DNA of 58,240 nt. It comes from a virus (lineage: Duplodnaviria > Caudoviricetes). The notes under the pieces were generated by a model. It ran no database searches. It was not told the DNA's origin and saw nothing but the letters and a program-made list of their open reading frames with translations. The stretch is taken from IMG/VR virus record IMGVR_UViG_3300005326_000051, positions 1 to 58,240 of that record; one strand, 5' to 3'. Of the stretch, positions 3,240 through 51,842 are shown in pieces (within the stretch, counting starts at the first letter, position 1; the number at the start of each line of letters is the position of its first letter). The position numbers and the translations under genes are program-made.

Positions 3240-4138
3240 TAGTGAGTAATAATATCTCTCCGCCACCAATTAAAGAACAGATGTTTCATACTACTGGAAT
3301 ACTATCAAGAGTATGGATTATGTTCTTTCAGGAAGTGCAAACTAAGCTTAAAAAAGCACTCGATAATGGGCCTGAAAATGCAGAGTTAATGGCGTCAGTT
3401 ATGGATTCGCCTAAAGATGTGTCTAGACTTTTAGCGGAGGTTGATGCACTAATAAGATTCGCAGAAGGTAAAGTTGATTACTCAAAACAGCTTAGTGACC
3501 TTGAGAGACTAGTTGCAGTTATTGAAAAATCTAAGGTTATTCCAAGTGAATTTAATGAGTTAAGTATTCGTACATCCTTTGATACTCCTCAGACAATAGC
3601 TAAAGTTAGTCTGTGGGATGATGTGCGAATTATTCCAGGAGCACTTGTATTTGCTGGTTCAAGCGATCCAACGTTACAGGATTGGCGTCCTGGTGGTGCT
3701 GGCGCTACGTTTAAAGTATGGAAGTTTGATAGTGGAGATGAGGCATTTTTTACTTGTCAACTTCCTCATGGATACAAAGAAGGAAGTGATATATATCCTC
3801 ATGTGCATTGGACTCCAGGTGGTAGAGGTACAACAGAAGGAACTGCAACTGTAGGATGGAAAATTGATTATTCTTGGGCAAGTGTAGATGGGGTCTTTGC
3901 TGCTAGTAGTACAGTGGATTGTACTGATGCGTGCAAGTCAGCTAATGACCAGCACCTTATTTCACCAGAAACCGCAATTTCTGGGGCAGGTAAAACAATG
4001 TCGTCAATGTTAGTATGCAGAGTTTATAGGGATGGTGGTACGTGGGCAGGTACTTTAGCAAATGCGCCAGCGCTACTTGAAGTAGATATTCATTACCAAC
4101 TTGATGGGTTGGGAAGCAGAACAACTGATTTAAAATAA
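3230..4138 (+). CDS. putative virion/tail protein
   Basis: Follows the gp10-like gene. N-terminal SRVWIMFFQ helix, coiled coil, then a beta-rich C-terminal domain. Confidence 0.5.
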   Translation: MQIVVSNNISPPPIKEQMFHTTGILSRVWIMFFQEVQTKLKKALDNGPENAELMASVMDSPKDVSRLLAEVDALIRFAEGKVDYSKQLSDLERLVAVIEKSKVIPSEFNELSIRTSFDTPQTIAKVSLWDDVRIIPGALVFAGSSDPTLQDWRPGGAGATFKVWKFDSGDEAFFTCQLPHGYKEGSDIYPHVHWTPGGRGTTEGTATVGWKIDYSWASVDGVFAASSTVDCTDACKSANDQHLISPETAISGAGKTMSSMLVCRVYRDGGTWAGTLANAPALLEVDIHYQLDGLGSRTTDLK

Positions 4139-4147
4139 GGAGATATT

Positions 4148-4483
4148 ATGTTATCATATAAAGCACTTGTTGATGGGGTAAATCTTACAAATGCAGCAGC
4201 AACGTATTATACTGCTCCAACAGGAACAAAAGCTTTGGTTAAGAAAGCTACATTTACTAACGATCATACGTCGGTAGTAACAGTTACTATTAATCTTGTT
4301 CCAACTGGCGGTACTGCAGCGTATGCAAATCAAGTAACTAAGGCAAAAGCTTTAGCAGCTGGAGAAACATGGTCATGTCCAGATATTGAGAATCATGTTC
4401 TAGAGGCTGGTGGATTTATTTCTATGCTTGCATCTGTTGATGCTAAAATTGGTGTAAGAATATCTGGACTTGAGTCTGTATAA
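4148..4483 (+). CDS. small virion structural protein (hypothetical)
   Basis: RBS AGGAG. 111 aa, beta-rich, in the tail module. Confidence 0.5.
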   Translation: MLSYKALVDGVNLTNAAATYYTAPTGTKALVKKATFTNDHTSVVTVTINLVPTGGTAAYANQVTKAKALAAGETWSCPDIENHVLEAGGFISMLASVDAKIGVRISGLESV

Positions 4484-4495
4484 AGGAGATTAAAT

Positions 4496-6829
4496 ATGAA
4501 AGTATTTATAAAAGCTATTACAGTTTTACTTGTTTTGTTACTAACTTGTAGTTTTGCTAATGCTGCAGCTTTATTTAACTACCCTAAGTTTAAAGCTGTT
4601 ACTTCTACTGGAGCTGCTTTAACTGGTGGTCTTGTGTATACGTATAATTCTGGTTCTACTACACCTAAAGCGACATATAGTGATAGAGCAATGACTACTC
4701 CAAATACTAATCCTGTTGTGCTAGACTCAAGAGGCGAAGCAACAATCTACTTTAATGGTACTTATAAAGTTGTACTTAAAAGTTCGACAGGTGTTACTCA
4801 GTGGACAATGGACAAAGTTGCTGGAATAACTCCTACTGGTGAGTCGTACGAAGTGCAAGCAATAGATTACGGAAGCAGTACTTGTACTGGTGCAACTATA
4901 TCAGCAGCTTTAACTGCAATAGGAGTTTCTACAAAAACTACTTTAATTCTTACTTCTTGTACATGGGTGATAAGTGCTAATACTGATTGGTCTACTTACA
5001 CAAATGTAGCACTCAAGTTTGCTCCAGGTGCAGTTATTTCTAATGGAGCGTATACAGTTAAATGGGGTGGATCAGTTGAAGCTTTACCTGACCAACAAAT
5101 AGCTGACGGTACTGGATCATGGACACTTAATCCAGCAAAAGTTACTACAGCTTATATCAACTGGTTTGGAGCTAATACTACTCCTGGAACAACAGATATG
5201 ACAGCAGCTATTAAATCTGCGCTTTTATCTCTACGTGATGTAACTTTCTTGCGACAAAATTATCTTGTTACAGATACTCTTTTAATTGTTCCTTATCAGC
5301 ATGTGCGTGGCCAGAATAAAACAATGGTTCCTTCGTGGCGTACAGTTAGTCTTGACGAAACTGCAATAACTTTTGCTCCGACGAGTGAAAAGGACTTGTT
5401 TGACATAGTAAATACAGGTGGTGGAAGTCCTACTGTTCCAGGGTATAAGTATAACATACATATTAGTGGAATACGAGTAGTTGGAAATACTACAGGTGCT
5501 GTAACTAATTCTCGGTATGGTATTTATTGTGCTGCAGCTGAAAGTACATTTGAAAATCTTAGTTTTATGTACTTTCAAGTAGGTATATATACTCGATACA
5601 CACTTACTAATCATTACTCTAATATCAACTTAGCAGAAATGAGTACTGCATGTATAGAGACTGATGCTGATACTACTTACTACAGTACGACAGATATATT
5701 TACTAACGTGGTATGTCAGTTATCACCTTGGGGTGCTATTCTACGTAAAGGGTATGACTTTAAATTCCAAAATTGTTTATGGGAACACCTGACTACAGGT
5801 GGTGTAAATATCTACAAAGATTTTATTGGAGCAGAATTTACTGATGGGTACGCTGAAGAAGTTCCAAGTACAGTAGCTGGAGATAGCTATGCTATGTTCT
5901 ATATTAACAAAGATGGAACTACTGCTTCAAACAGAGGAACAATTAAAATCTCTGGTGGTTACTACATGGGCGGAGCAACTAACTGGGGAAGTTTTGTAGA
6001 TGTTGGTGTAGCAAATGGTGGGCAGAATGTGGTAGTTACAGGTGCAAACTATTCTCGATATAAGTACAGAATTAAAAGAGATTCAACATTAACTCTTTTT
6101 ATGGGAGTGGTGGAAAGAGATACAGGTTGGGCTAATGTTACTAATGCTGCTGATACTAATGTTGGAACAGTAATGCTTAATAACGGTACGTATACAGATA
6201 ATTACCCACTAATGTATCCATTACTAACTCTTCAAATTTTCGGTAACACTATAAATGAAATGGGGATACTTAGTGTTATTCAAAATGCGGATACAATACG
6301 GCCTAAGTTGATAACAACTAGCTCTACACCACTGATCGAGATAGGTGCAACAGCAGGGAAATTAGGAATATCTATTAGTGCAACCTCTGATCTTATTGGT
6401 GGAAGAGGATTTTTTACAGGTTCTGCTACTGGCTGGACACTCGGTGCTGGCTGGGCTTATGGAACTAATAACATTGTAAAAACAGCTGGAACAGGTACTG
6501 CTGGTGATACTACTTGGGCAGCTACAGTTGGGTATATCTATGAACTGACATTTACTGTATCCGGCTGGTCGACTGGTGCAAACAGAACCTTAACTCCAAG
6601 TGTTGGTGGAGTTAATGGAACTGCTATTTCAGCTGATGGTACTTATGTACAATATATTACAGCAACAACTACAGGTGGCTTACTGTTTACTCCTACTGGA
6701 ACTGACGCAACCAATGTTGGACTTACTCTTGATGGAGTCTATATTAAGAGAAGTCTACAAGGTATTACATATACAAACAGAACAGGTGAGACTATTACAC
6801 TTATGAGAAGTTTAATAAGATCTAATTAG
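4496..6829 (+). CDS. tail fibre/tailspike with beta-helix (pectate-lyase-like) region and N-terminal signal-peptide-like segment
   Basis: Head-binding-type motif GGLVYTY..G.TTPKATYSD...NTNPVVLDSRGEA. WFGA...TDMTAAI tailspike motif followed by beta-helix-like repeats. Confidence 0.8.
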   Translation: MKVFIKAITVLLVLLLTCSFANAAALFNYPKFKAVTSTGAALTGGLVYTYNSGSTTPKATYSDRAMTTPNTNPVVLDSRGEATIYFNGTYKVVLKSSTGVTQWTMDKVAGITPTGESYEVQAIDYGSSTCTGATISAALTAIGVSTKTTLILTSCTWVISANTDWSTYTNVALKFAPGAVISNGAYTVKWGGSVEALPDQQIADGTGSWTLNPAKVTTAYINWFGANTTPGTTDMTAAIKSALLSLRDVTFLRQNYLVTDTLLIVPYQHVRGQNKTMVPSWRTVSLDETAITFAPTSEKDLFDIVNTGGGSPTVPGYKYNIHISGIRVVGNTTGAVTNSRYGIYCAAAESTFENLSFMYFQVGIYTRYTLTNHYSNINLAEMSTACIETDADTTYYSTTDIFTNVVCQLSPWGAILRKGYDFKFQNCLWEHLTTGGVNIYKDFIGAEFTDGYAEEVPSTVAGDSYAMFYINKDGTTASNRGTIKISGGYYMGGATNWGSFVDVGVANGGQNVVVTGANYSRYKYRIKRDSTLTLFMGVVERDTGWANVTNAADTNVGTVMLNNGTYTDNYPLMYPLLTLQIFGNTINEMGILSVIQNADTIRPKLITTSSTPLIEIGATAGKLGISISATSDLIGGRGFFTGSATGWTLGAGWAYGTNNIVKTAGTGTAGDTTWAATVGYIYELTFTVSGWSTGANRTLTPSVGGVNGTAISADGTYVQYITATTTGGLLFTPTGTDATNVGLTLDGVYIKRSLQGITYTNRTGETITLMRSLIRSN

Positions 6830-22105: not shown

Positions 22106-23437
22106 TCATTTCACACCTCTCAACTTAGCCATTCTTGAAACAGCAAGTGCGTAGTTCTCAATGCTCTTCTCGCATCCAAGACTCAATACCTTCATCTGTA
22201 ATCCCGCCTCAACCAGTGCACCACTACCCATGCAAGGATCAATCATGTACTGTCCAGGTAGACACACTCTCGATATCAGCTCCTTGCAAAGCTCTACTGG
22301 CTTTTCGGCCTGATGTACCCGTTCGGAGGGCAGTACTGGGTCACACTGAATCCAGTCGGGTCTTCCTTGCAGGACAAGACTAGAGTTTGGTTTTCTTCCG
22401 AATAGCACAAACTCATACGCAGAGCTGAACCATCTCTCAGGTTGATTGTTCTGTCCAGTTGTTCGCTTAATCCAGACGATGGGGCGCGGGGCGACAAGCC
22501 AACCAGCAAGCTCCATTCTTTCTTTAAGCCACCAGAAGTGACTTGGCGCACAGAAAATGAGCGCATGGCCTGTGTCTTTTGTGACTCGGTAAGATTCAGT
22601 GACGAGTCTTTCAAGAAGAGCTTTAGCATAGCCTTCACTGTCGTCATAGGTAGTTCCAGTTCCTGTAATGCTTCCACCTGTTTCTCCTCCAACTGTCATA
22701 GCAACGTCATGAATGTCTATACCGTAGGGCGGGTCAGTAAAGAATAAGTCTACTGTGCCTGTTCCAATACCGGCAAGATATTCTTCAGCTGCTTTGTTTA
22801 CAAGAATGCACTCGTCAGATTTCTTAATGATATCTTCATAAGATGTGAGTGCTTGCATCTGCCGCTGTACATTTTCAATTCCCTTCACAGCTTTTTTAAT
22901 ATCTGACTTTGATTTACACTCACTGAGGTTCGGGAACTGTTTAATCGCCGCGGCAATCTGAAGTTCTTCAATGACTGAACCTTTTGTCTTACCAAGCATT
23001 TCTGCAGCATCTTCAAGTGTGAACCCACCTTCCTTACCCTGGACAGGCGTACCATGAAGCTTACGTTTCAGTGCAACCATTTCGTCTACTGCAAGAGCGT
23101 ACTCAGCTGGAGTAAGTTCCTCACGCTGAAGATTCTCTTCAAGCTCAAGCTCACGTAAAGTAAGCGGATCAAGCACATCCTTGTAACATACGCGAGCCTT
23201 ACGGCCAAGCAGCATACATGCCGCAAGCCTACGTCCACCGGCAATCAACGTGTTGTCTCTTGCTATCAGGATTGGCAGAAGTTGACCGTACTTCTTTATC
23301 GACTCCACCATCTTCTCAATCTTTACAAGATCTTTTCTTTGCCGAGGTCGTTCTGTACTGATGATAACATCAGTAGGTTCCATCTCGAAAATAAGTTCTT
23401 CGCTAATTTGTGTCTGTACTTTCTGTTCCTCATTCAT
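22106..23437 (-). CDS. ParB/Srx domain + HTH + N6A/N4C DNA methyltransferase fusion
   Basis: GQLLPILI...IAGGRRLAA...EENLQRE (ParB). TLEDAAEMLGKTKGSV (HTH). TDPPY, HQAEKP, DPCMGSG (beta-class MTase). Confidence 0.9.
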   Translation of the reverse strand: MNEEQKVQTQISEELIFEMEPTDVIISTERPRQRKDLVKIEKMVESIKKYGQLLPILIARDNTLIAGGRRLAACMLLGRKARVCYKDVLDPLTLRELELEENLQREELTPAEYALAVDEMVALKRKLHGTPVQGKEGGFTLEDAAEMLGKTKGSVIEELQIAAAIKQFPNLSECKSKSDIKKAVKGIENVQRQMQALTSYEDIIKKSDECILVNKAAEEYLAGIGTGTVDLFFTDPPYGIDIHDVAMTVGGETGGSITGTGTTYDDSEGYAKALLERLVTESYRVTKDTGHALIFCAPSHFWWLKERMELAGWLVAPRPIVWIKRTTGQNNQPERWFSSAYEFVLFGRKPNSSLVLQGRPDWIQCDPVLPSERVHQAEKPVELCKELISRVCLPGQYMIDPCMGSGALVEAGLQMKVLSLGCEKSIENYALAVSRMAKLRGVK

Positions 23438-25174: not shown

Positions 25175-25250
25175 TGGTCGGAGCAGGAGGATTTGAACCT
25201 CCGACCTCTCGCTCCCAAAGCGAGCGCGCTACCAACTGCGCCATGCTCCG
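25175..25250 (-). tRNA. tRNA-Pro(TGG)
   Basis: 76-nt cloverleaf: CGGAGCA/TGCTCCG acceptor stem, CTCGC-TT-TGG-GA-GCGAG anticodon arm, GGTTCAAATCC T arm, encoded ACCA. Confidence 0.97.
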
Positions 25251-25254
25251 TAAA

Positions 25255-25373
25255 GAACAGCATCCTGACTCCTGCACATTCCCCAATATATAGGTATGAG
25301 AGACAAACACTTTTCAATCAAGCCCTTTAGACTTAAGTGTTTAATTGTTTGTTCTACTATCAGGATGCTGTTC
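25255..25373 (-). ncRNA. candidate 119-nt structured RNA immediately 5' of tRNA-Pro
   Basis: Perfect 14-bp closing stem GAACAGCATCCTGA/TCAGGATGCTGTTC. Inner 8-bp stem AAACACTT/AAGTGTTT. Intergenic. Confidence 0.5.
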
Positions 25374-29080: not shown

Positions 29081-30424
29081 TTAAATATAAACCGTCTTAA
29101 TCTTTTCATACTCCTGGATAAATCGAATGACTGCTTCCGACCAGCCACTAATATGCACCCAGCCGTTGTCGTACCCGACTCCATTCTGATACCCAGCTAC
29201 GTTTATAATGTAGCCTTTATCATACGGAGCACAGGGTCGATCTGCAGATTGCTCATCAGTAATAACAATAAGTCTTTCGCACTGTGGAAATACTTTGTAA
29301 ATATAGTCTACGGCTTTGCCGAGCTTAGTCCGCGTTGGATTAATCTTTTCCTTTACTGCTGCAAGCATAGCAAAACCTTTTCGCGGAGCAATCTCAACGC
29401 AGTCTTCAGCAAAAGTAAACAGCCGGAAACCTCTATCTTCACAAAGCTCTCTACATAGAATGCCAACTGCACCGGCTGCATCGAAGCGAGTGATCTCGGA
29501 CTTTGCTGAGATCGTGTTCTGCATTGAGCCGGAGTGATCAATCAGCAGAGCAGTCTTCCCACTCAGCTTCTCCATGCTTTGTACTGCTTTTAGCATAGGA
29601 ACTTCAAGGTGTATTTCAAGGTGCGGAGCATACTTGGCGGCTGAAATGAAACGGAAAGGAAGAATATTACTTGTCTTCATAGTAGAGAGTGCTTCAATAA
29701 TTAAGTCCTCATCTACATCAGCCTGAGTCATGTTCCTTAGATTCCGCAGGAGAGCCAGCCCGCCAAGTTTACGCTCACGCAGTAAACGCTCAAATGTTTC
29801 TTTCTTATCTTTACCAGCTGACAGTGCAACTTCCCATGTATCAGGTACAGCAAGCTGGTCGTCTTTAAGACGCCGAAACAACTCACCCTGCTCAGCAGTC
29901 AGTGGTTTCGGATGACATATTTTCAGCACGTCCTTCAGTTTAATCTCGTTCGGCTTGTTGTATTTGGCCAGTTGATACTCATTAAACTTAGTGAAAGCCT
30001 TTGCCAGCCCACGTTTTACCTGTCCAGATACAGGAGATTTCTTAAAGGTCTTCTCACCTTCCCAGTAAATAGCAAGGAACTCAGCAAGTTCATCTGGTCT
30101 CTGAACAATTTGCGCAAGCGTATCAGCAACAACATGCTTATGTGAGTCAAGTGCTGCCATGGTTCTGGTGATGTAAAGTGGAGTATGTCGAAGGTTGTAA
30201 ATACTTCGTACATCTACAGCAATCTGCGCGACAATTTCAGGTTTAACTAACGGAATGAGATTTTTAATTCTTTCGGCTTGTGACTCTCCATCCTCGTAGA
30301 AGTTATTCTCCCACAACAGACAGCAACAAACTGTGCGTCTAAGCATTTGCTCCGGTGTAATTCTTGAAGCAACTGCTCCTTCATACGTTCGGATAGGTTC
30401 TGCAGGTACATTTTTTCTTGCCAT
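29081..30424 (-). CDS. rsr: Ro60/Rsr-like TROVE-domain RNA-binding protein with C-terminal vWA domain
   Basis: TYEGA...LRR...LWENNFYEDG, RPDELAEFLA, FNEYQLAKY, HPKP, TWEVALS, ALLRNLRNM, LPFRFISA. MIDAS motifs DHSGSM and ITDEQ. C-terminal HISGWSE. Confidence 0.95.
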   Translation of the reverse strand: MARKNVPAEPIRTYEGAVASRITPEQMLRRTVCCCLLWENNFYEDGESQAERIKNLIPLVKPEIVAQIAVDVRSIYNLRHTPLYITRTMAALDSHKHVVADTLAQIVQRPDELAEFLAIYWEGEKTFKKSPVSGQVKRGLAKAFTKFNEYQLAKYNKPNEIKLKDVLKICHPKPLTAEQGELFRRLKDDQLAVPDTWEVALSAGKDKKETFERLLRERKLGGLALLRNLRNMTQADVDEDLIIEALSTMKTSNILPFRFISAAKYAPHLEIHLEVPMLKAVQSMEKLSGKTALLIDHSGSMQNTISAKSEITRFDAAGAVGILCRELCEDRGFRLFTFAEDCVEIAPRKGFAMLAAVKEKINPTRTKLGKAVDYIYKVFPQCERLIVITDEQSADRPCAPYDKGYIINVAGYQNGVGYDNGWVHISGWSEAVIRFIQEYEKIKTVYI

Positions 30425-30453
30425 GTTTCTCTTCTCCTTTAAGTTTTATTTGA

Positions 30454-30625
30454 TTCTAGGGTACAATCGCTTACAGTTTCAAGGTAGCCTTACTGCTACC
30501 ACGGTTGTCAGCTCTCGATAAAACTGCTGCATGTTTTACAGGATTTGAACCTGCTCGTCCGGCATATTTCAGCTGGACTTAATCCAAGTTTTATTATGAA
30601 GTAACTGTAAACTACACCACTAGAA
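30454..30625 (-). ncRNA. Y RNA (YrlA-like, 172 nt) with internal T-arm
   Basis: Ends pair (TTCTAG/CTAGAA). 5' GGTGTAG-TTTACAG-TTACTTC and 3' CTGTAAG-CGATTGTACC module. Internal GCAGG-TTCAAAT-CCTGT and three more hairpins. Adjacent to the TROVE gene. Confidence 0.8.
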
Positions 30626-30640
30626 CTTGTTAGCAAAATC

Positions 30641-30830
30641 TTGGCAGCAGTAAATCTACCATACTTTCTTCACCCGTTAACGCTACCATACTGAGTCAAG
30701 GTTCTGACCATCTACTCTACGTCCGTTGCTTGCCACAATCTAAAAACTCTAGAACTCTTCTCACGTACTTCTCGAGAACTCGTAAGGTAGTAATTAAGGT
30801 GGCAACCCCGTTTCGGTTTACTGCTACCAA
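30641..30830 (-). ncRNA. unassigned ~190-nt structured RNA within the Ro60 RNA array
   Basis: 16-bp closing stem TTGGTAGCAGTAAACC/GATTTACTGCTGCCAA (one G-U, one mismatch). Inner stems TTGCCAC/GTGGCAA and GGTCAG/TTGACT. No ORF. Confidence 0.6.
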
Positions 30831-30839
30831 AGTAAAAAC

Positions 30840-30916
30840 TACTGTAGAGTATAATCGTAATCAGCATTTGTCATACACCATAGAATGAAGTAACTGATTA
30901 CTACGCTACTACAGTA
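30840..30916 (-). ncRNA. minimal Y RNA (77 nt; putative Ro-binding module only)
   Basis: TACTGTAG-TAGCGTAG-TAATCAG-TTACTTC-loop-CTGATTA-CGATTATACT-CTACAGTA. Confidence 0.8.
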
Positions 30917-30926
30917 AATTGTTAAG

Positions 30927-31061
30927 TGGACAGGGTATAGGATTCGAACCTATGCTTAAAAGTGCCTGGTGAAGTATCTCTTTTGTACGGCATAGTTTTC
31001 ACTAGCGAAAATCCAAAAAAGTCTTTTCTAACTTTTGCCTTACCACTTGGCTAACCCTGTC
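30927..31061 (-). ncRNA. tRNA-shaped RNA (135 nt) with the anticodon loop replaced by a 67-nt permuted Y-RNA module
   Basis: G-ACAGGGT/ACCCTGT-CCA acceptor, D arm GCCAAGTGGTAAGGC, anticodon stem AAAGT/ACTTT, T arm ATAGG-TTCGAAT-CCTAT. Insert CTTTTTTG-GATTTTCG...GCCGTA-CAAAAGAG-ATACTTC. Confidence 0.82.
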
Positions 31062-31062
31062 A

Positions 31063-31192
31063 TGGGGACGGAGGCAGGATTCGAACCTGCGGCCTCGTCA
31101 TTAGTAGTGAAGTAACTGTGATCTACGCTACATTTCTGAGAGTAATCGAGCACAGAAATTTTCGCGCTCTAACCAACTGAGCTACTCCGTCC
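31063..31192 (-). ncRNA. tRNA-shaped RNA (130 nt) with the anticodon arm replaced by a permuted Y-RNA module
   Basis: G-GACGGAG/CTCCGTC-C-CCA acceptor, D arm GCTC-AGTTGGTTA-GAGC, T arm GCAGG-TTCGAAT-CCTGC. Insert CTGTG-CT-CGATTACTCT-CAGAAATG-TAGCGTAG-AT-CACAG-TTACTTC. Confidence 0.88.
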
Positions 31193-31236
31193 ATTGTTCA
31201 AAGATCGTAACACCTTTTCTTATTGTTTATGTGTGT

Positions 31237-31265
31237 ATCATACACCCGTTTTTTAAAGTTGTCAA
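31237..31265 (-). promoter_or_regulatory. sigma70-type promoter for the RNA array / Ro60 operon
   Basis: TTGACA-17 nt-TATGAT, about 45 nt upstream of the first RNA. Confidence 0.85.
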
Positions 31266-41724: not shown

Positions 41725-41753
41725 ATCATACACCATTGCGTGGCAGTTGTCAA
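41725..41753 (-). promoter_or_regulatory. sigma70-type early promoter
   Basis: TTGACA-17 nt-TATGAT. Confidence 0.85.
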
Positions 41754-46189: not shown

Positions 46190-48661
46190 ATGGAATTAAC
46201 AGGAAGTAACATTAACAAGGCAGTCTTGAATAGATTGAAAGAGTGGAAGAATTCTCCACTTCAGTTTGTTAAAGAATGTCTTCATGCTACTCCATCTGAG
46301 CAACAGATTGATTTCCTTCTTAAACTAGCAAAAGAAAAGCGTATTACGATTAGGTCAGGGCATGGTTGTCATGCAGCAGGTACTATAATTCATCTTTATC
46401 CATACGGGTTTAAAGCTGTGGAAGATGTAGAAGTTGGAGATCTTCTTATGGGTGACGATAATACTCCTAGAAGAGTTCTTGAACTGTACCGTGGCAAAGA
46501 AGAAATGGCGCGAGTCAAGTATTCTGATAATACTTATTACGATGTAAATATGAGCCACAAACTTGCACTAGTTTGTACTGGAAGTAAAGGTAAGTATAAA
46601 TCTGGTGATATGTTTGAGATGTCTGTACGAGAATTTTTAACTTGGCCTGAATGGAAAAGAAAAAGATTTGCTGGTTATAAAGTAGCAATAGACTATCCAG
46701 AAATTCCTGTGATGATTCCTCCATATATTCTTGGTATGTGGCTTGGAGATGGGTCACATAACGCTATTGAAATAACTAATATTGATACTATGTTAATAGG
46801 TATATGGCAGTTATTTGGTGAAGCTAATGGTTTGAGCATGACTACGACTTCTGATAAACTGCATAGACTTGTAGGAGATAAAAGTATTGTTAATGATGCT
46901 TTTAAACATTATGGCTTGTTTGGTAATAAGCATATTCCAAAAGAATATTTGTTTAATTCTAAAGATGTGAGACTTAAGTTACTTGCTGGTCTTATAGATA
47001 CAGATGGGTATGCTGATACTAGAAGTGGACTACAGTTTCAGATAATTCAGAAGAGAAAAGATTTAGCAGAAGATATACTATTTCTTGCTCAGTCATGCGG
47101 TATTCACGCTACTCTTACATCCAAAATAAAAAGTTGGGAGTACAAAGGGCAAGTAAATTATGATACTTACTACGAAGTTCATATGTCTCGGAATACTGAA
47201 CAAATTCCTACACAGTTAAAACGTAAGCAGTCTACTGAAGATTATAACAAGCAAAGAAGTAATCTGCATTTTGGAATATCTATTGAAAAATTACCAGAGA
47301 ATAGTTATTATGGATTTGAAGTAGATGGAAATCATCTGTATGTTCTTGGTGACTTTACTGTAACACGAAATACTGGTAAGGATGCCAGTGCCGCATGGGC
47401 AATCTTGTGGTTTTCGACCACTCGCGCCTACGCTAAAGTTGCCTGCACCGCTCCAACAAATCGGCAGTTGAAGGACGTTTTAGTTTCCGAGATTTCAAAG
47501 TGGTTACGTGGGTCAGAAATTGCTGATGAGTTCGTAATTCGCAAGGAAATAATCTTTCACAAAGAAGCTCCACGTGAATGGTGGATAAGGTTTATCTCTC
47601 CATCAGTTCGTGCTACAAAGGAAGAACAGGCCGAAACTCTGGCTGGGTTGCATGGCGATCATTTACTTATAGTTTGTGACGAGGCCAGCGGTATTCCTGA
47701 CCCCACATTTATCCCACTTGAAGGAGCTATGACCCAGCCAGACAATAAAGTTTTGCTTATTGGAAATATGACTAAGAACACTGGTTATTTCTATGATACC
47801 CATTTTCATAGTGAGATTTCCAAAGACTGGTGCAAACTTCACTGGGATAGTAGGCAGTCGTCTAACGTTGATAAGTCAATGCCTGAGTACTTTGCAAAGA
47901 AGTATGGTATTGACTCTGACGTATACAGAATTCGTGTTATGGGTGATCCTCCTGTGCAGAACACGAACAGCCTTATTCAGTTGTGGACTGCTGAGCAGTG
48001 CATTGGAAACGAGATACTGGTTGCGGAGGATGAGCCACTTTATCTTGGTGTTGACGTTGCAAGATATGGCGATGATGCTTCTATTATCCTCCCACGACAG
48101 GGCCTGATTATCCATCCTTGGGAAGAGTTTAGAAAACTTAATACCATTGATCTTGGTGGATTTATTATGCAGACGTACCAGGAAGTTGGAGCACATGGCT
48201 GTGCTATTGACTCTATTGGAGTTGGTGCTGGAGTTGCTGACTGGCTTGAGAAGCATAACCTTGAGAACCTGTTTCAGATTAATGTTTCTACTTCTTCTAG
48301 TGATATTAAGAAATACAACCGTCTTCGTGATGAGTTGTGGTGTAGAGTTCGTGATAATTGCTTATTAGGTAAATACTCTTTCCCAGATGTCATTATAGAC
48401 GGAGAGAAGGAATCGTTGGGAAGACAGCTTGCGAATGAGCTTGCCACTGTGCGGTATAAGTTTAATGGGCATGGAGGCTATGTTGTTGAGTCTAAGAAGG
48501 ATATGCGGGCTCGTGGTGTTGCCTCTCCGAACATAGCTGATGCGCTCTGTCTTACGGAGTACTTCTCCAACGATGCTACAAGAGTTTTCGCTAAACCAAA
48601 AGAAGAGCCAAAAAGAAACTATAGTGACAGACAGTGTTCTGCGCAGTCATGGATGAGTTAA
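46190..48661 (+). CDS. terL: terminase large subunit containing an intein
   Basis: Spliced Walker A SGHG/TGKD, CTAPT, LAGLHG, VCDEASG, IGNMT. Nuclease motifs LGVDVARYGDD, IDSIGVG, SPNIADAL. 488 aa after splicing. Confidence 0.95.
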   Translation: MELTGSNINKAVLNRLKEWKNSPLQFVKECLHATPSEQQIDFLLKLAKEKRITIRSGHGCHAAGTIIHLYPYGFKAVEDVEVGDLLMGDDNTPRRVLELYRGKEEMARVKYSDNTYYDVNMSHKLALVCTGSKGKYKSGDMFEMSVREFLTWPEWKRKRFAGYKVAIDYPEIPVMIPPYILGMWLGDGSHNAIEITNIDTMLIGIWQLFGEANGLSMTTTSDKLHRLVGDKSIVNDAFKHYGLFGNKHIPKEYLFNSKDVRLKLLAGLIDTDGYADTRSGLQFQIIQKRKDLAEDILFLAQSCGIHATLTSKIKSWEYKGQVNYDTYYEVHMSRNTEQIPTQLKRKQSTEDYNKQRSNLHFGISIEKLPENSYYGFEVDGNHLYVLGDFTVTRNTGKDASAAWAILWFSTTRAYAKVACTAPTNRQLKDVLVSEISKWLRGSEIADEFVIRKEIIFHKEAPREWWIRFISPSVRATKEEQAETLAGLHGDHLLIVCDEASGIPDPTFIPLEGAMTQPDNKVLLIGNMTKNTGYFYDTHFHSEISKDWCKLHWDSRQSSNVDKSMPEYFAKKYGIDSDVYRIRVMGDPPVQNTNSLIQLWTAEQCIGNEILVAEDEPLYLGVDVARYGDDASIILPRQGLIIHPWEEFRKLNTIDLGGFIMQTYQEVGAHGCAIDSIGVGAGVADWLEKHNLENLFQINVSTSSSDIKKYNRLRDELWCRVRDNCLLGKYSFPDVIIDGEKESLGRQLANELATVRYKFNGHGGYVVESKKDMRARGVASPNIADALCLTEYFSNDATRVFAKPKEEPKRNYSDRQCSAQSWMS
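46367..47371 (+). mobile_element. intein with LAGLIDADG homing endonuclease in the TerL P-loop (335 aa)
   Basis: Starts CHAAGT, ends DFTVTRN with +1 Thr. LGMWLGDG and LAGLIDTDG motifs. Confidence 0.93.
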
Positions 48662-48884: not shown

Positions 48885-51842
48885 ATGACTAGTGAAAAAG
48901 AGCAGAAAATTTTAACAGAAGCTAGAGATAGACTTAAAAAAGCTATAACAGATGATGATGAGAATCGTCGTCTTGCGTATAATGATCTAGAGTTTATTGC
49001 TATTGAAGGTAAGCAATGGCCAGACGCTATTCGAGTAGAGCGTGAAGCGAATAATCAACCATGCTTAACTATTAATAAACTTCCAGCATTTGTTGATCAG
49101 GTAGTTGGTGATCAGAGAATGAATAGGCCATCTATCAGAGTTGTTCCGGTTGACTCGTATGCGGATAAAAAGGTGGCAAGAATTCTTAGTGGCTGGATTA
49201 AGCATGTGCAGAATATCTCAAAGGCTGATATTGCAGTAGATCACGGTTTTGAACACGCAGTAACCTGTGGTTATGGAGCAATAAGAGTAGTTACGAAGTT
49301 CCTGTCTGATACTTCTGTTGATCAACAAGAGGCTTTTATTGAGAAAGTTGAAAACGCGCTCGCAGTTTACTGGGGCAAACATAAGGAGTATGACTGTTCT
49401 GATGCAAAGTATTGCTTTATAGTATCTGATATTGATAGAGAAGAGTTTGAAGATAAGTATAAAGTTCCTCCAATGCCGTTTAACTATACTGATAGTCAGT
49501 ATGTTGAAGGTTGGTGTACTAACGAAACAGTTAGAGTTGTTGAGTACTTTGTGAAAGAACCCACTGAAAGAATGATTTATCTGCTTTCGGATGGTAGAAC
49601 TGTAGATAAAGTCGAGACAACTGATATCGTTGTAAAGAAAAGAAATGTAAAGTCACATAAGATTATGTGGTATTTACTTTCTGGGAATAAAGTTCTTGAC
49701 AGTAAAGAGTGGGCAGGAAAGAAGTATATTCCTGTTATTCCTATCTGGGGCAAAGAACTTAACGTCGGTGGAAAGAAGGTTATTCGTGGACTTATAAGGA
49801 ATGGAAAAGATGCTCAAAGAATGTATAATTACTGGCAAGCTCTTGACTTAAATACGCCTATTCCAATTCCTGGTGGATGGACTACTATGAAAGATGTAGT
49901 AGTCGGCAGTCAGCTTTTTGACGAAGCTGGTAAAGTATGTGAAGTTACAAACATAAGTCCTGTTTTTCTTAATAGAAACTGTGCTGAAGTTCTGTTTGAT
50001 GACGGCTCTGTCATTACTGCTGACGTTAAACATCTATGGACTGTTGAAGAAAGAGGAAAGAGAACTTCCCGTTCCTATAGTTGGACTAAGCGTACTATTA
50101 CTACAGACCAATTAATTCCAGGAAAGCATTTTATCTATGTTGCTGATCCTTTAGATTTACCTGCTCAAGAACTTCCTATAGATCCATATGTGCTTGGTGT
50201 ATGGCTTGGCGATGGTTCTGTTAGAGATGTTGTTATAACACAAAGTAAGGATGATTGGTCAGAACTTTCACAGCATCTTAGTAAGTGTGGATGTCAGTTT
50301 GGTACTAGTACTATAAAGGATAATTGCGTAGCAACGACATTGCTTGGAATGCGTAGCAAGTTTAGTGAGTTAAGTTTACTTGATAATAAGCACATTCCAT
50401 ACTTGTATGTAAGAAGTTCAAAAGAGCAACGACTACAACTGCTGCAAGGTTTAATGGATACAGATGGTTCAGTAAATACTGTTAACGGGCAGTGTAGTTT
50501 TACTACTACAAGTGCAGAGATTGCTAAAGGATTTTCAGAGCTTATAAGAACTCTTGGTATTAAATCTAGTTTCTTGGTTAGAAATAGAAACGGAGCTAAT
50601 GTTTTTGATAATGCTAAGTTGCAATACCAGTTTAGCTTTACTACTAGATTAAATGTATTTAAATTATCAAGAAAGCTTAAAGGTATTGGAAATGTTAAAG
50701 AAGAAGTACGAAGAACTAAAAGGTACAAGATTAAAAGTGTTACTCCAGTTTTGTCTGTACCAGTTAAGTGTGTTACTGTTGATAGTGCGTCATGTTTGTA
50801 CCTTGCTGGAGTTGGTATGGTTCCTACGCATAATTCGTGCGATACTGAAGTGGTTGCACTTCAACCAAAGACTCCATACCTTATTACTCCGAAGCAAATT
50901 AAGGGTCATGAAGCACAGTGGAAAGATGCACACAGACGAAACTTCCCATATCTCTTAGTTAACTTTGATGAGAAGGCTCCGGGCTGGCCAAAAAGAGAAT
51001 CTCCTCCACAAGCTTCGAGTGCTATGGTTGAAAAGATTCAAATGGCTGATCAGGAAATGCGTGATACTATGGGCCTGCAGAAAGCAAGTCTTGGTATGCA
51101 GAGTAATGAAAGGTCTGGATCTGCAATAAGGGAACGTAAACTTGAAGGTGATGTTGGTACGTTTGCCTTTATTGATAACCTTTCACGCTCGATACAGCAG
51201 GTTGGAAGAATTTTGGTTGATATAGCTCCGGTAATTCTTGATACGCAGCGAATAGTACGACTTGGACTTGAAGATGGAGATTTTGAGTTTGAAGAAGTAA
51301 ATGTACAGGACAAAGAAAATCCTCAGCAGATTATGAATGATCTGTCTATTGGTACTTACGACGTTACTGTTACTGTTGGCCCAAGCTTCACTACACAAAG
51401 AACCGAAGCACGGCAGTCAATGCAGGAATTTATTCAGTACAATCCAAATGCAGCACCGTTGATTGGTGACTTGTACGCTAAGTTGATGGATTGGCCAGGA
51501 GCAGATGAGGTATCAAAGAGACTTGAGTACCTACTTCCTCCAGAAATACGTACTGAGATCATTACTAAGCGTGCATTGAAGGAAGGTAAAGAACCTCCTC
51601 CACAACCAGGAAGTGAATCTCAGCAACCTGACCCGACTATGGTGTTGAAGATTCAGACTGAACAAGTTAAACTTCAGGAAGCACAGATTAAGTTACAGCA
51701 GGAGCAAGCTAAGCTTGAGGAGATTAAGTTAAGGCAGCAGTTAGCTATTGCTGAATCTAGACAAAGAGTTTCTGATATGGTTGAAAAACTTATAGCAGAG
51801 AAACTTGGTGAAAGGGAAAAGGAAAATGCCGAAAGGGACTAA
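48885..51842 (+). CDS. portal protein (P22-like) containing an intein
   Basis: GKQWP, PCLTINKL, YIPVIPIWG, DAQRMYNYW, SGSAIRERK, GTYDVTVTVGPSFTTQR. 653 aa after splicing. Confidence 0.93.
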   Translation: MTSEKEQKILTEARDRLKKAITDDDENRRLAYNDLEFIAIEGKQWPDAIRVEREANNQPCLTINKLPAFVDQVVGDQRMNRPSIRVVPVDSYADKKVARILSGWIKHVQNISKADIAVDHGFEHAVTCGYGAIRVVTKFLSDTSVDQQEAFIEKVENALAVYWGKHKEYDCSDAKYCFIVSDIDREEFEDKYKVPPMPFNYTDSQYVEGWCTNETVRVVEYFVKEPTERMIYLLSDGRTVDKVETTDIVVKKRNVKSHKIMWYLLSGNKVLDSKEWAGKKYIPVIPIWGKELNVGGKKVIRGLIRNGKDAQRMYNYWQALDLNTPIPIPGGWTTMKDVVVGSQLFDEAGKVCEVTNISPVFLNRNCAEVLFDDGSVITADVKHLWTVEERGKRTSRSYSWTKRTITTDQLIPGKHFIYVADPLDLPAQELPIDPYVLGVWLGDGSVRDVVITQSKDDWSELSQHLSKCGCQFGTSTIKDNCVATTLLGMRSKFSELSLLDNKHIPYLYVRSSKEQRLQLLQGLMDTDGSVNTVNGQCSFTTTSAEIAKGFSELIRTLGIKSSFLVRNRNGANVFDNAKLQYQFSFTTRLNVFKLSRKLKGIGNVKEEVRRTKRYKIKSVTPVLSVPVKCVTVDSASCLYLAGVGMVPTHNSCDTEVVALQPKTPYLITPKQIKGHEAQWKDAHRRNFPYLLVNFDEKAPGWPKRESPPQASSAMVEKIQMADQEMRDTMGLQKASLGMQSNERSGSAIRERKLEGDVGTFAFIDNLSRSIQQVGRILVDIAPVILDTQRIVRLGLEDGDFEFEEVNVQDKENPQQIMNDLSIGTYDVTVTVGPSFTTQRTEARQSMQEFIQYNPNAAPLIGDLYAKLMDWPGADEVSKRLEYLLPPEIRTEIITKRALKEGKEPPPQPGSESQQPDPTMVLKIQTEQVKLQEAQIKLQQEQAKLEEIKLRQQLAIAESRQRVSDMVEKLIAEKLGEREKENAERD
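49839..50834 (+). mobile_element. class 3 (Ala1, W-C-T) intein with LAGLIDADG endonuclease in the portal (332 aa)
   Basis: Starts ALDLNTPIP. Block B HLW, block F VKCVTV, block G PTHN with +1 Ser. LGVWLGDG and LQGLMDTDG motifs. Confidence 0.92.

What the first reader, a model, noticed from the sequence alone, without database searches (positions are those of the whole stretch)
29081..31265. Phage-encoded Ro60/TROVE operon with a five-RNA array and no RtcB
Seen: a near-consensus sigma70 promoter (31237-31265), then five back-to-back structured RNAs separated by 1-15 nt, then an RBS and the Ro60 gene 30 nt later. TGAAGTAACTG recurs on the + strand at 30597, 30886 and 31108, with the variant TGAAGTATCTC at 30970. 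Known: bacterial rsr-yrl loci often sit with rtcB/rtcA RNA repair genes, and a Y RNA tethers Rsr to PNPase in Deinococcus. Inference: one Ro60 ring with at least four interchangeable RNA adaptors (minimal, long YrlA-like, two tRNA-ended) forms a modular RNP toolkit. It may redirect host RNA decay or repair, or counter RNA-damaging defences. No RNA ligase is recognisable in this genome, so partners would be host-encoded.
Basis: partly seen in the sequence, partly recalled or inferred. Interest (0 to 1): 0.88.

Follow-up and report, generated by a model that had tools for sequence, protein, structure and literature searches.

The report
Phage Ro60 gene with Y-RNA array
A groundwater phage carries a Ro60-type RNA-binding ring protein behind a row of four small Y RNAs, two of them built like complete tRNAs; the system is known in kind, but this tRNA-shaped form has not been described.

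Summary
On the minus strand a TTGACA-17-TATGAT promoter (31265-31237) is followed by five closely spaced RNA-like units and a TROVE+vWA (Ro60) gene (30424-29081).

Four units carry a two-stranded Ro60-binding-type helix:
- 5' strand of GGYGWAG type followed by UUACUUC;
- 3' strand of UGUUCC type.

My covariance model of this helix gave 113 matches in 35 TROVE loci. All were on the TROVE strand, and the pairs covaried strongly.

- RNA3 is a minimal hairpin.
- RNA5 has the YrlA order.
- RNA1 and RNA2 have the tRNA order: free 7-bp acceptor stem, D and T arms, with the Ro helix where the anticodon arm would be. RNA1 has an encoded CCA.
- RNA4 is an unclassified predicted stem-closed segment.

The tRNA-ordered form recurs in at least 9 other viral contigs and in cultured crAss001. 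Arrays of 2-8 modules are the rule among relatives, including Caulobacter phage CcrColossus and Xanthomonas phage Olaya.

The closest solved relative is Thermus phage phiLo Ro60, which binds two upstream Y RNAs and host PNPase. Absence of RtcB is real but typical of relatives.

Phage Ro60-Y RNA loci are already published, so this is a new variant of a known kind. Expression could not be tested.

The parts
31237..31265 (-). Sigma-70-type promoter, TTGACA-17-TATGAT
   Evidence: 11 of 12 matches. One of two such sites in the genome, and it shares an extended identity with the site at 41753. Activity was not tested.
31063..31191 (-). RNA1, a tRNA-ordered Y RNA. Acceptor 5' strand 31191-31185; D arm; 3'-type strand of the Ro helix about 31155-31138; loop; 5'-type strand 31131-31108 ending in UUACUUCA; short hairpin; T arm; acceptor 3' strand; C73; encoded CCA 31065-31063. 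G at -1 (31192).
   Evidence: Rfam tRNA model 47.7 bits with a long insert. ARAGORN calls it only when introns are allowed. Model R2 gives 110 bits, E 8e-23. Acceptor stem is 100% paired and covaries in 14 sequences. 5-bp upper stem CUGUG:CACAG.
30927..31060 (-). RNA2, a second tRNA-ordered Y RNA with a divergent Ro motif (GCCGUAC ... AUACUUCA). 7-bp acceptor, C73, then CA.
   Evidence: Rfam tRNA model 49 bits. R2 gives 81.6 bits. 8-bp upper stem CUUUUUUG:CAAAAGAG. Its GC:GC pair replaces the usual GG:CC pair.
30841..30916 (-). RNA3, a minimal Y RNA: lower stem, internal loop, upper stem, apical loop. It is followed by a run of five U (30838-30834).
   Evidence: R1 gives 62.7 bits, E 8e-12. 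MFE z -2.91.
30640..30831 (-). RNA4, an unclassified predicted structured segment closed by a stem of about 15 pairs. It has no Ro motif and is followed by a U-rich tract.
   Evidence: MFE z -1.83. Terminator-like hit at 30661-30642. No Rfam match up to E 10. No nhmmer or blastn homologue in the 134 loci then held. No R1 hit.
30453..30627 (-). RNA5, a long Y RNA in YrlA order: 5' strand, then a T-arm-like hairpin (loop UUCAAAU), two further hairpins, then the 3' strand.
   Evidence: R1 gives 48.1 bits, E 1.5e-8, with a 111-nt insert. MFE z -4.64, 0 of 200 shuffles as good.
30434..30439 (-). Ribosome-binding site AAGGAG, 9 nt before the ATG
   Evidence: Read from the sequence.
29081..30424 (-). 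Ro60-type gene: TROVE ring domain plus vWA domain with MIDAS DHSGS, 447 aa
   Evidence: Pfam TROVE 6.7e-21; VWA_2 24 bits, below its 27-bit cut-off. phrog_850 at 7e-48. Full-length match to Thermus phage phiLo Ro60 (9KOP/9L5Y), E 4e-26. Translation.

Best explanation
This is a phage Ro60-Y RNA locus.

Shown by sequence and comparison:
- A TROVE+vWA (Ro60) gene is preceded on the same strand by four RNAs.
- Each RNA carries the same two-stranded helix: a lower stem including GG:CC; an internal loop with YGWAG on the 5' strand and UGUUC on the 3' strand; a covarying upper stem; then UUACUUC.
- RNA3 is the bare helix. RNA5 has the YrlA arrangement, with both ends at the helix.
- RNA1 and RNA2 are the circular permutation of that arrangement. 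The ends lie at a 7-bp acceptor stem, D and T arms are in tRNA order, and the Ro helix is closed by a loop where the anticodon arm would be.

Inferred mechanism:
- The promoter gives a precursor, perhaps attenuated at the U runs after RNA3 and RNA4.
- Host RNase P, 3' trimming and the CCA enzyme cut out RNA1 and RNA2 as they would tRNAs.
- The phage Ro60 ring binds the conserved helix of each RNA.
- The variable ends (tRNA elbow and acceptor, or plain loops) tether the ring to host proteins. PNPase is the best-documented candidate.
- In this way the phage would redirect or dampen host RNA decay, or a defence that depends on it, early in infection.
For: Protein:
- Pfam TROVE and phrog_850 matches.
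- Full-length match to phiLo Ro60 with the MIDAS motif aligned.

Conserved helix:
- Model R1 was built from 20 compact units.
- It gave 113 matches at E<=1 in 35 sources searched on both strands: 109 upstream of TROVE, 4 downstream, 0 on the other strand.
- 31 of 35 sources have at least 2 upstream modules; the maximum is 8.
- 93.3% of cells are paired against 57.9% in shuffles and 46-51% when slid. All 16 pairs show two-sided changes.
- In the whole window with filters off, only RNA3 and RNA5 score (62.7 and 48.1 bits); the next best is 12.4 bits.

tRNA-ordered form:
- RNAalifold on a plain MAFFT alignment predicts the acceptor and T stems, with compensatory changes in 11 of 14 pairs.
- R2 gives 14 matches of at least 68 bits in 11 sources, 4 of them not in the seed.
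- 90.7% of cells are paired against 63.4% in shuffles, and the acceptor stem is 100% paired.
- crAss001 scores 82.1 and 57.2 bits just downstream of its TROVE gene.

Motif kinship and mechanism by analogy:
- Chen 2014 describes GNCGAAN0-1G and YUAY in YrlA, and RNase P cleavage plus CCA addition of the M. smegmatis YrlA, which has a 7-bp acceptor-like stem.
- phiLo Ro60 binds two upstream Y-like RNAs through a CGAA motif and forms complexes with host PNPase that slow it.
- TROVE is an early gene in crAss001.
- The phage encodes no PNPase-type RNase PH domain, CCA enzyme, RtcB, RtcA or Rnl2.
Against: - There are no expression or binding data. No RNA run holds the sequence, so one precursor, discrete RNAs and Ro60 binding are all inferred.
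- The strict published motif is not met in the window: the modules read CGUA or UGUA where YrlA has CGAA, and RNA2 reads GCCGUAC.
- The Rfam YrlA model fails: 17.4 bits against a threshold of 69 in the window, and no match at gathering score in 18 related loci.
- Single-sequence folds of RNA1 and RNA2 are not better than shuffles by much (z -1.89 and -1.14) and do not reproduce the whole proposed shape.
- Alignments A2 and A6 were fitted to the models, which favours the structures. 10 of the 14 rows of A6 were seeds, and 4 rows are near-identical relatives.
- A U run after RNA3, a terminator-like site after RNA4 and a 10-of-12 promoter-like site inside RNA5 may split the locus into several transcripts.
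- The promoter count is not above chance on its own.
- The host is unknown.
- RNA4 is unexplained.
Confidence: 0.72

Rival explanations
1. The RNP is the same, but its job is to block a host anti-phage defence rather than to act on PNPase-dependent RNA decay. It would do so either directly or by offering tRNA-shaped decoys.
For: In E. coli phage Bas63 the Ro60-like gp130 was found to counter the Ppl defence, and its authors suspect that neighbouring 'tRNA' genes are Y RNAs (passages). In 10 of 16 related loci, ordinary tRNA genes lie within 3 kb of TROVE. RNA1 and RNA2 keep the tRNA elbow and acceptor.
Against: The window encodes no known defence target or sensor. RNA1 and RNA2 lack an anticodon loop, so they cannot decoy anticodon nucleases in the usual way. 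Kinship between Bas63 gp130 and this protein was not tested here.
Confidence: 0.2
2. RNA1 and RNA2 are real tRNA genes interrupted by introns of 52-62 nt, and the array is a tRNA cluster.
For: The Rfam tRNA model scores 47.7 and 49 bits. ARAGORN with introns allowed names them tRNA-Ser.
Against: The 'intron' is the same conserved helix found in units that have no tRNA parts (RNA3, and 113 R1 matches). It always lies next to TROVE. No regular anticodon stem-loop is left after its removal. ARAGORN without introns does not call them.
Confidence: 0.03
3. The units, above all RNA5 just before the ribosome-binding site, are mainly a cis-acting leader through which Ro60 controls its own translation, not trans-acting RNAs.
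For: RNA5 ends 28 nt before the ATG. Modules lie 15-110 nt before TROVE in most loci.
Against: In crAss001, L121 and L128 the modules lie downstream of TROVE. tRNA-type ends point to excision. Published Y RNAs act in trans.
Confidence: 0.08
4. The repeated motif is a DNA-level element, such as protein-binding sites or recombination repeats, and not RNA.
For: Exact 11-mers recur three times.
Against: Two-sided compensatory changes occur in all 16 helix pairs. All 113 matches are on one strand although both strands were searched.
Confidence: 0.02

Closest known systems
Thermus phage phiLo Ro60 with Yrl1 and Yrl2 (PDB 9KOP, 9L5Y; NAR 2025, PMC12135203, passages seen)
   Same: A phage-encoded TROVE+vWA ring, and the best PDB match (E 4e-26, full length). 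Y-like RNAs lie directly upstream on the same strand, each a stem-bulge-stem with a CGAA-type motif. The phage has no PNPase or RtcB, and host PNPase is recruited.
   Different: phiLo has two RNAs described as plain hairpins. Here there are four modules plus one unknown RNA, and two have complete tRNA-like bodies with free acceptor ends. The motif here reads CGUA or UGUA. I did not run my models on the phiLo RNAs, because the record was not among the rows I fetched.
YrlA/YrlB of Salmonella Typhimurium and Mycobacterium smegmatis (Rfam RF02553; Chen 2014, PMC4201824)
   Same: Encoded beside Ro60 on its strand. The 5'-strand motif resembles GNCGAAN0-1G and is followed by YUAY. T and D arms are tRNA-like. 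Several Y RNAs come from one precursor in M. smegmatis. [quoted passage not shown]
   Different: In YrlA both ends sit at the Ro helix and the acceptor stem is a closed hairpin, making it a circularly permuted tRNA. RNA1 and RNA2 have the unpermuted order. The 3' strand (UGUUCC) is also conserved here, whereas Chen 2014 found only the 5' strand recognisable. RF02553 does not reach its threshold.
Deinococcus radiodurans Rsr-Yrn1-PNPase (RYPER)
   Same: A Y RNA tethers the Ro60 ring to PNPase. Yrn1 has a T-arm-like hairpin, and both helix strands are conserved.
   Different: This is a cellular, stress-induced system. In Yrn1 the Ro helix takes the place of the acceptor stem, an order I saw in L009, L011 and L015 but not in the window.
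Bas63 gp130 (Ro60-like) countering the Ppl defence (bioRxiv 10.1101/2024.10.10.617714, passages seen)
   Same: A phage Ro60-like gene next to tRNA-like genes that the authors suspect to be Y RNAs, with a tested role in infection.
   Different: Similarity to Ro60 was by structure only. Sequence kinship to this protein was not tested here, and no Y RNA has been shown.

Membership tests
Ro60 / Rsr (TROVE) protein | TROVE (HEAT-repeat ring) domain | tested here: met
   Pfam PF05731, E 6.7e-21, 75.4 bits against a cut-off of 23. Residues 11-440 align with 21-483 of phiLo Ro60.
Ro60 / Rsr (TROVE) protein | C-terminal vWA domain with MIDAS motif DxSxS | tested here: met
   DHSGS in LLIDHSGSM aligns with DVSGS of 9L5Y. 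Pfam VWA_2 scores only 24 bits, under its 27-bit cut-off.
Ro60 / Rsr (TROVE) protein | Closed ring fold | not tested
   No structure prediction was run. The fold is inferred from full-length sequence similarity to a solved ring.
Bacterial/phage Y RNA (YrlA type) | Encoded within 4 kb of Ro60 on the same strand | tested here: met
   All four modules lie 29-770 nt upstream on the minus strand. This matches the criterion given in Chen 2014.
Bacterial/phage Y RNA (YrlA type) | 5'-strand motif GNCGAAN0-1G | tested here: not met
   The window reads AGCGUAG (RNA1, RNA3), GGUGUAG (RNA5) and GCCGUAC (RNA2). Relatives read GGYGWAG, which includes GGCGAAG. This is a related motif, not the strict one.
Bacterial/phage Y RNA (YrlA type) | Conserved YUAY after the helix | tested here: met
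   UUAC in RNA1, RNA3 and RNA5; AUAC in RNA2. YUAY is described.
Bacterial/phage Y RNA (YrlA type) | Ends at the Ro helix, closed acceptor hairpin between T and D arms | tested here: not met
   RNA1 and RNA2 have open acceptor stems and a closed Ro helix. RNA5 has the YrlA order but no D-arm-like hairpin. RNA3 has no tRNA parts.
Bacterial/phage Y RNA (YrlA type) | Rfam RF02553 gathering score (69 bits) | tested here: not met
   17.4 bits, E 1.2, and the match spans the RNA1-RNA2 junction. There were 0 matches in 15 and in 3 related loci.
Bacterial/phage Y RNA (YrlA type) | Bound by Ro60 | not testable with these tools
   Needs RIP or gel shift.
tRNA | Acceptor, D and T arms | tested here: met
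   RF00005 scores 47.7 and 49 bits. The acceptor stem is 100% paired with covariation.
tRNA | Anticodon arm with a 7-nt loop at the usual place | tested here: not met
   Inserts of 52-66 nt that hold the Ro helix take its place.

The most novel reading that the evidence does not exclude
RNA1 and RNA2 belong to an undescribed class of Y RNA, which I call tRNA-ordered Y RNAs. The class is found in this phage, in crAss001 and in at least nine other viral contigs.

The host tRNA machinery (RNase P, 3' trimming, CCA addition) would mature these RNAs. They would give the phage Ro60 ring a handle with a free, CCA-ended acceptor arm.

They would also be the unpermuted form from which the circularly permuted YrlA arose, by tandem duplication inside such arrays. 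In support, the weak YrlA match in the window runs exactly across the RNA1-RNA2 junction.

RNA1, with G-1, C73 and an encoded CCA, might even be charged like tRNA-His.
Probability: 0.35. Interest if true: 0.75.

Novelty: new variant of a known kind. Interest (0 to 1): 0.6.

Why it matters
Ro60-Y RNA particles are conserved from bacteria to humans, yet it is still unclear what the tRNA-like part of bacterial Y RNAs is for and how it arose.

This locus and its relatives show three things:
1. Phage Ro60 genes usually come with whole arrays of 2-8 Y modules. The literature I could search describes one to three.
2. The modules exist in three topologies. One is a true tRNA order with free acceptor ends, which makes processing by RNase P and CCA addition a testable general route.
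3. The same unannotated RNAs sit in cultured phages: crAss001, CcrColossus and Xanthomonas phage Olaya. The questions can therefore be taken to the bench.

Two recent papers link phage Ro60 to host PNPase and to counter-defence. The arrays may therefore be a common and overlooked part of the phage takeover or anti-defence repertoire. They are also a source of mis-annotated 'tRNA' genes.

Tried and rejected
Expression. The look-up of sequencing runs listed no RNA holder. Only two DNA runs from groundwater metagenomes were listed, both possible sources of the contig.

RNA4. I found no Rfam match up to E 10. nhmmer and blastn-short found no homologue among the 134 loci then held. R1 gave no hit with filters off. 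The DNA inverted-repeat scan does not list its stem because of G-U pairs. I looked by eye for degenerate Ro motifs in it and found only unconvincing fragments. It stays unclassified.

The nearest TROVE in IMG/VR is 53% identical, so there was no near relative with which to test RNA4 or the spacers.

Pattern scans of IMG/VR.
- Most hits of both patterns are chance matches. Only 20 of 118 loci carry TROVE in the stretch fetched.
- Of the 120 hits examined, 22 had a T-loop-like motif and 13 a perfect acceptor complement.
- Several of those 13 lie in a protein-coding gene family (L148, L235 and others) and were dropped.

My automatic finder for the 3' strand was noisy. I chose the 20 seed units for A1 by eye from its output.

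The ARAGORN call at L037:1238-1360 is a reading across two adjacent YrlA-ordered units, with a poor acceptor stem, and was dropped. R2 matches of 50-62 bits in L004, L106 and L111 are readings of the same kind.

An anticodon-like hairpin after UUACUUCA (4 bp, 7-nt loop) occurs in only 16 of 121 units, so it is not a general feature.

The idea that the window is a crAss-like phage, raised by the first blastn hit, was dropped. The capsid protein is P22-like and nearest to phages of Proteobacteria at 32-36% identity.

The review PMC10870794 is not held. Supplementary tables of Chen 2014, which list the phage hits and may show several hits per genome, could not be seen. My statement that arrays and tRNA-ordered Y RNAs are not described rests on the paper searches, and on the passages I read.
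Full report
CONTEXT

The window is a whole IMG/VR virus record of 58,240 bp, rated 100% complete by CheckV. It is a tailed phage. It has terminase-like, portal, P22-type major head, head-closure, DNA polymerase, primase, Sak4-like and PD-(D/E)XK exonuclease genes.

The nearest cultured capsid relatives are phages of Proteobacteria at 32-36% identity, so the host is unknown. The only DNA holders are groundwater metagenome runs.

THE OBSERVATION

- Promoter: TTGACA-17-TATGAT at 31265-31237, 11 of 12 matches. Only two sites of this quality exist in the genome, which is not more than chance in number (1.1 +/- 0.95 in Markov shuffles). The two share identity beyond the hexamers, ATTGACAACT and GGTGTATGATA, which suggests a real promoter type.
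- Motif: the 11-mer occurs exactly three times in 58 kb, always inside the array, with the variant at 30970.
- Non-coding gap: between the stop of the upstream small ORF (31283) and the ATG at 30424 lie 858 nt. No ORF in that stretch is longer than 52 aa.

THE PROTEIN

The 447-aa product matches Pfam TROVE (E 6.7e-21) and, weakly, VWA_2. It also matches the phage family phrog_850 'RNA-binding protein' (7e-48).

It aligns over its full length with the Ro60 of Thermus phage phiLo (PDB 9KOP/9L5Y, E 4e-26), including the MIDAS motif. No other PDB chain matched at E<=0.001.

THE RNAS

RNA1 and RNA2 score 47.7 and 49 bits with the Rfam tRNA model, but each has a 60-66-nt insert where the anticodon loop should be. 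ARAGORN finds them only when introns are allowed.

I aligned the sequence around every TACTTC upstream of the TROVE genes in 16 IMG/VR relatives (42-53% protein identity). This revealed a longer conserved 5' strand, roughly GUGGYGWAG, 5-8 nt, RG, UUACUUC. There is a matching conserved 3' strand ending in UGUUCC followed by the complement of the first bases.

The GGYGWAG core resembles the GNCGAAN0-1G motif, and UUAC is the YUAY element. Chen et al. 2014 described both for YrlA (sections 5 and 6 read in full).

A pattern scan of IMG/VR for the 5' strand returned 118 loci, mostly chance hits. Even so, 20 of them carry a TROVE gene next to the hit.

MODEL R1: THE CONSERVED HELIX

I built covariance model R1 from 20 hand-picked compact units.
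- It found 113 matches at E<=1 in 35 sources searched on both strands.
- All 113 are on the TROVE strand: 109 upstream, 4 downstream, none opposite.
- Modules per source range from 0 to 8, and 31 of 35 sources have at least two.
- On the resulting alignment, 93.3% of cells pair, against 57.9% in shuffles and 46-51% when partners are slid. All 16 pairs show two-sided changes.
- That alignment is fitted to the model, so these numbers lean towards the structure. The gap is nevertheless large.
- In the window with filters off, only RNA3 (62.7 bits) and RNA5 (48.1 bits) score. The next best match is 12.4 bits.

The helix consists of a lower stem that includes a GG:CC pair, an internal loop with YGWAG opposite UGUUC, and an upper stem of 7-8 pairs.

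The GG:CC pair itself changes in a compensatory way in some lineages. It is GC:GC in L015 and in the window's RNA2, GA:UC in L012, and GU:AC in L014.

THREE TOPOLOGIES

(i) YrlA order: 5' strand, T arm, closed acceptor-like hairpin, D arm, 3' strand. Examples are the last units of L003 and L004, and CcrColossus. RNA5 has this order with a T-arm-like hairpin but no D-arm-like one.

(ii) The Ro helix takes the place of the acceptor stem around a D arm, anticodon-like arm and T arm. Examples are L009, L011 and L015. This is the order Chen 2014 describe for D. radiodurans Yrn1.

(iii) tRNA order, as in RNA1 and RNA2: acceptor 5' strand, D arm, 3'-type strand, loop, 5'-type strand with UUACUUCA, short hairpin, T arm, acceptor 3' strand.

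Evidence for type (iii):
- A pattern scan, ARAGORN with introns and pairing checks found it in L121 (two copies), L124, L128 with its close relatives L212, L221 and L231, L160 (two copies), L196, L236 and L243.
- RNAalifold on a plain MAFFT alignment of ten such RNAs predicts the acceptor and T stems with compensatory changes.
- Every one of the ten has a 4-9-bp upper stem between the two strands, with different sequences.
- Model R2 separates 14 such RNAs (68-115 bits) from readings across adjacent units (50-62 bits) and from ordinary tRNAs (25-46 bits).
- On those 14, 90.7% of cells pair against 63.4% in shuffles. The acceptor stem is paired in all 14, and all seven of its pairs covary.
- Caveat: ten of the 14 rows were seeds and four are near-identical.

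Ends of the window RNAs: RNA1 ends in C73 plus an encoded CCA. RNA2 ends in C73 plus CA. Both have G at position -1.

KNOWN PHAGES

The same models find unannotated modules in cultured phages.
- Caulobacter phage CcrColossus: eight modules upstream of its TROVE gene.
- Xanthomonas phage Olaya: five modules upstream.
- crAss001: one A-to-B module plus two tRNA-ordered RNAs (82.1 and 57.2 bits), in the 900-nt gap downstream of its TROVE gene.

The Rfam YrlA model reaches its threshold in none of these, nor in 15 IMG/VR loci.

Bacterial MAG contigs of Acidobacteriota, Cellvibrionaceae and Alphaproteobacteria carry TROVE genes 46-51% identical to this one. Eight of nine have 3-5 modules upstream; the ninth has no upstream sequence.

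WHAT IS ALREADY IN PRINT

- Chen 2014 reported YrlA-like RNAs near Ro60 in 254 bacteria and 22 phages. They also reported two Y RNAs cut from one precursor in M. smegmatis, and RNase P cleavage plus CCA addition of the YrlA that has a 7-bp acceptor-like stem.
- Wang et al. 2018 call YrlA a circularly permuted tRNA-like RNA and discuss an origin from a dimeric tRNA (passages).
- The phiLo paper shows a phage Ro60 binding two upstream Y-like RNAs through a CGAA motif. With host PNPase it forms complexes that slow PNPase (passages).
- A Listeria phage study suspects three abundant RNAs upstream of an Rsr-like gene to be Y RNAs.
- PhageMaP reports that Bas63 gp130, Ro60-like by structure, counters the Ppl defence.
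- In crAss001 the TROVE gene is an early gene. Neither crAss paper that I searched mentions Y RNAs.
- I found no description of multi-module arrays or of tRNA-ordered Y RNAs in seven searches. The supplements of Chen 2014 and the 2020 review could not be read.

MECHANISM

Shown: the gene, the four modules, their shared covarying helix, their topologies, and the absence from the phage of RtcB, RtcA, an Rnl2-type ligase, a PNPase-type domain and a CCA enzyme.

Inferred:
- Transcription starts at the promoter.
- RNA1 and RNA2 are excised by host RNase P and 3' trimming. The 2-nt spacer between the CCA of RNA1 and position +1 of RNA2 is what a polycistronic tRNA precursor looks like.
- Ro60 binds the helix.
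- The variable ends tether host factors.

The absence of RtcB is not special, since 0 of 4 related viral records have it.

A by-product concerns evolution. The weak YrlA match in the window (17.4 bits) runs from the 5' strand of RNA1, through its T arm, across the junction, into the D arm and 3' strand of RNA2. R2 likewise reads across adjacent YrlA-ordered units in L004, L106 and L111. Tandem arrays thus contain both orders in overlapping registers. This is the classic route of circular permutation by duplication. It is an inference, not a test.

VERDICT

This is a real and well-supported phage Ro60-Y RNA locus. The kind is known. The tRNA-ordered Y RNAs and the generality of arrays are new variants worth a specialist's attention, and cultured systems exist to test them. 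Function and expression remain untested.

Noticed in passing
window 31192 and 31066; 31061 and 30929: Both tRNA-ordered RNAs have G at position -1 and C at the discriminator position. RNA1 also has an encoded CCA. From my own recall, this is the acceptor signature of bacterial tRNA-His. The other tRNA-ordered RNAs I looked at (crAss001, L121, L128, L160, L236, L243) do not share it.
   Followed up: partly
L262 (Bacteroides phage crAss001, NC_049977) 3946-4030, 4124-4268, 4379-4518: The unannotated 900-nt gap downstream of the TROVE gene gp96 holds one minimal Y module and two tRNA-ordered Y RNAs. Scores are R1 31.9 bits, and R2 82.1 and 57.2 bits. The Rfam tRNA model gives 46.6 bits over 144 nt.
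   Followed up: partly
L260 (Caulobacter phage CcrColossus) 1218-2414; annotated tRNA-Gln at 1631-1698: Eight R1 modules lie upstream of the TROVE gene. The annotated tRNA-Gln lies inside one of them (R1 match 1625-1792) and starts at the conserved 5' strand, so it is probably a mis-annotated piece of a Y RNA.
   Followed up: partly
L009 2759-2890, L011 2753-2891, L015 2775-2912: A third topology: the Ro helix encloses a D arm, an anticodon-like arm and a T arm, taking the place of the acceptor stem. The Rfam tRNA model matches positions 5-66 only.
   Followed up: partly
window 41725-41753 (minus strand): A second copy of the same promoter type (TTGACA-17-TATGAT), sharing flanking identity with the array promoter. 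It may mark another early transcription unit.
   Followed up: partly
window 30832-30820 and about 30508-30496 (minus strand): The string GGUAGCAGUAA occurs both in the 5' strand of RNA4's closing stem and in a hairpin of RNA5. The 3' strand of RNA4 could therefore pair with either copy. AGUAUGGUAG is also repeated inside RNA4.
   Followed up: no
window 25175-25250 and 25255-25268 / 25360-25373: The phage's only ordinary tRNA (Pro, TGG) is followed by a perfect 14-nt inverted repeat with 91 nt between the arms.
   Followed up: no
window 46190-48661 and 48885-51842: Two large neighbouring ORFs both match terminase-large-subunit families. The second (985 aa) matches a portal family at residues 3-319 and terminase-like families at about 318-652. 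This is an unusual arrangement that I did not examine further.
   Followed up: no
window 22106-23437 (minus strand): A single 443-aa ORF combines ParB-like and DNA methyltransferase matches.
   Followed up: no
L001, L003, L005, L009-L011, L013, L014: In many related phages the TROVE-Y RNA block sits inside large tRNA gene clusters, with up to 15 tRNAs in 7 kb. In all, 10 of 16 loci have at least one tRNA within 3 kb.
   Followed up: no
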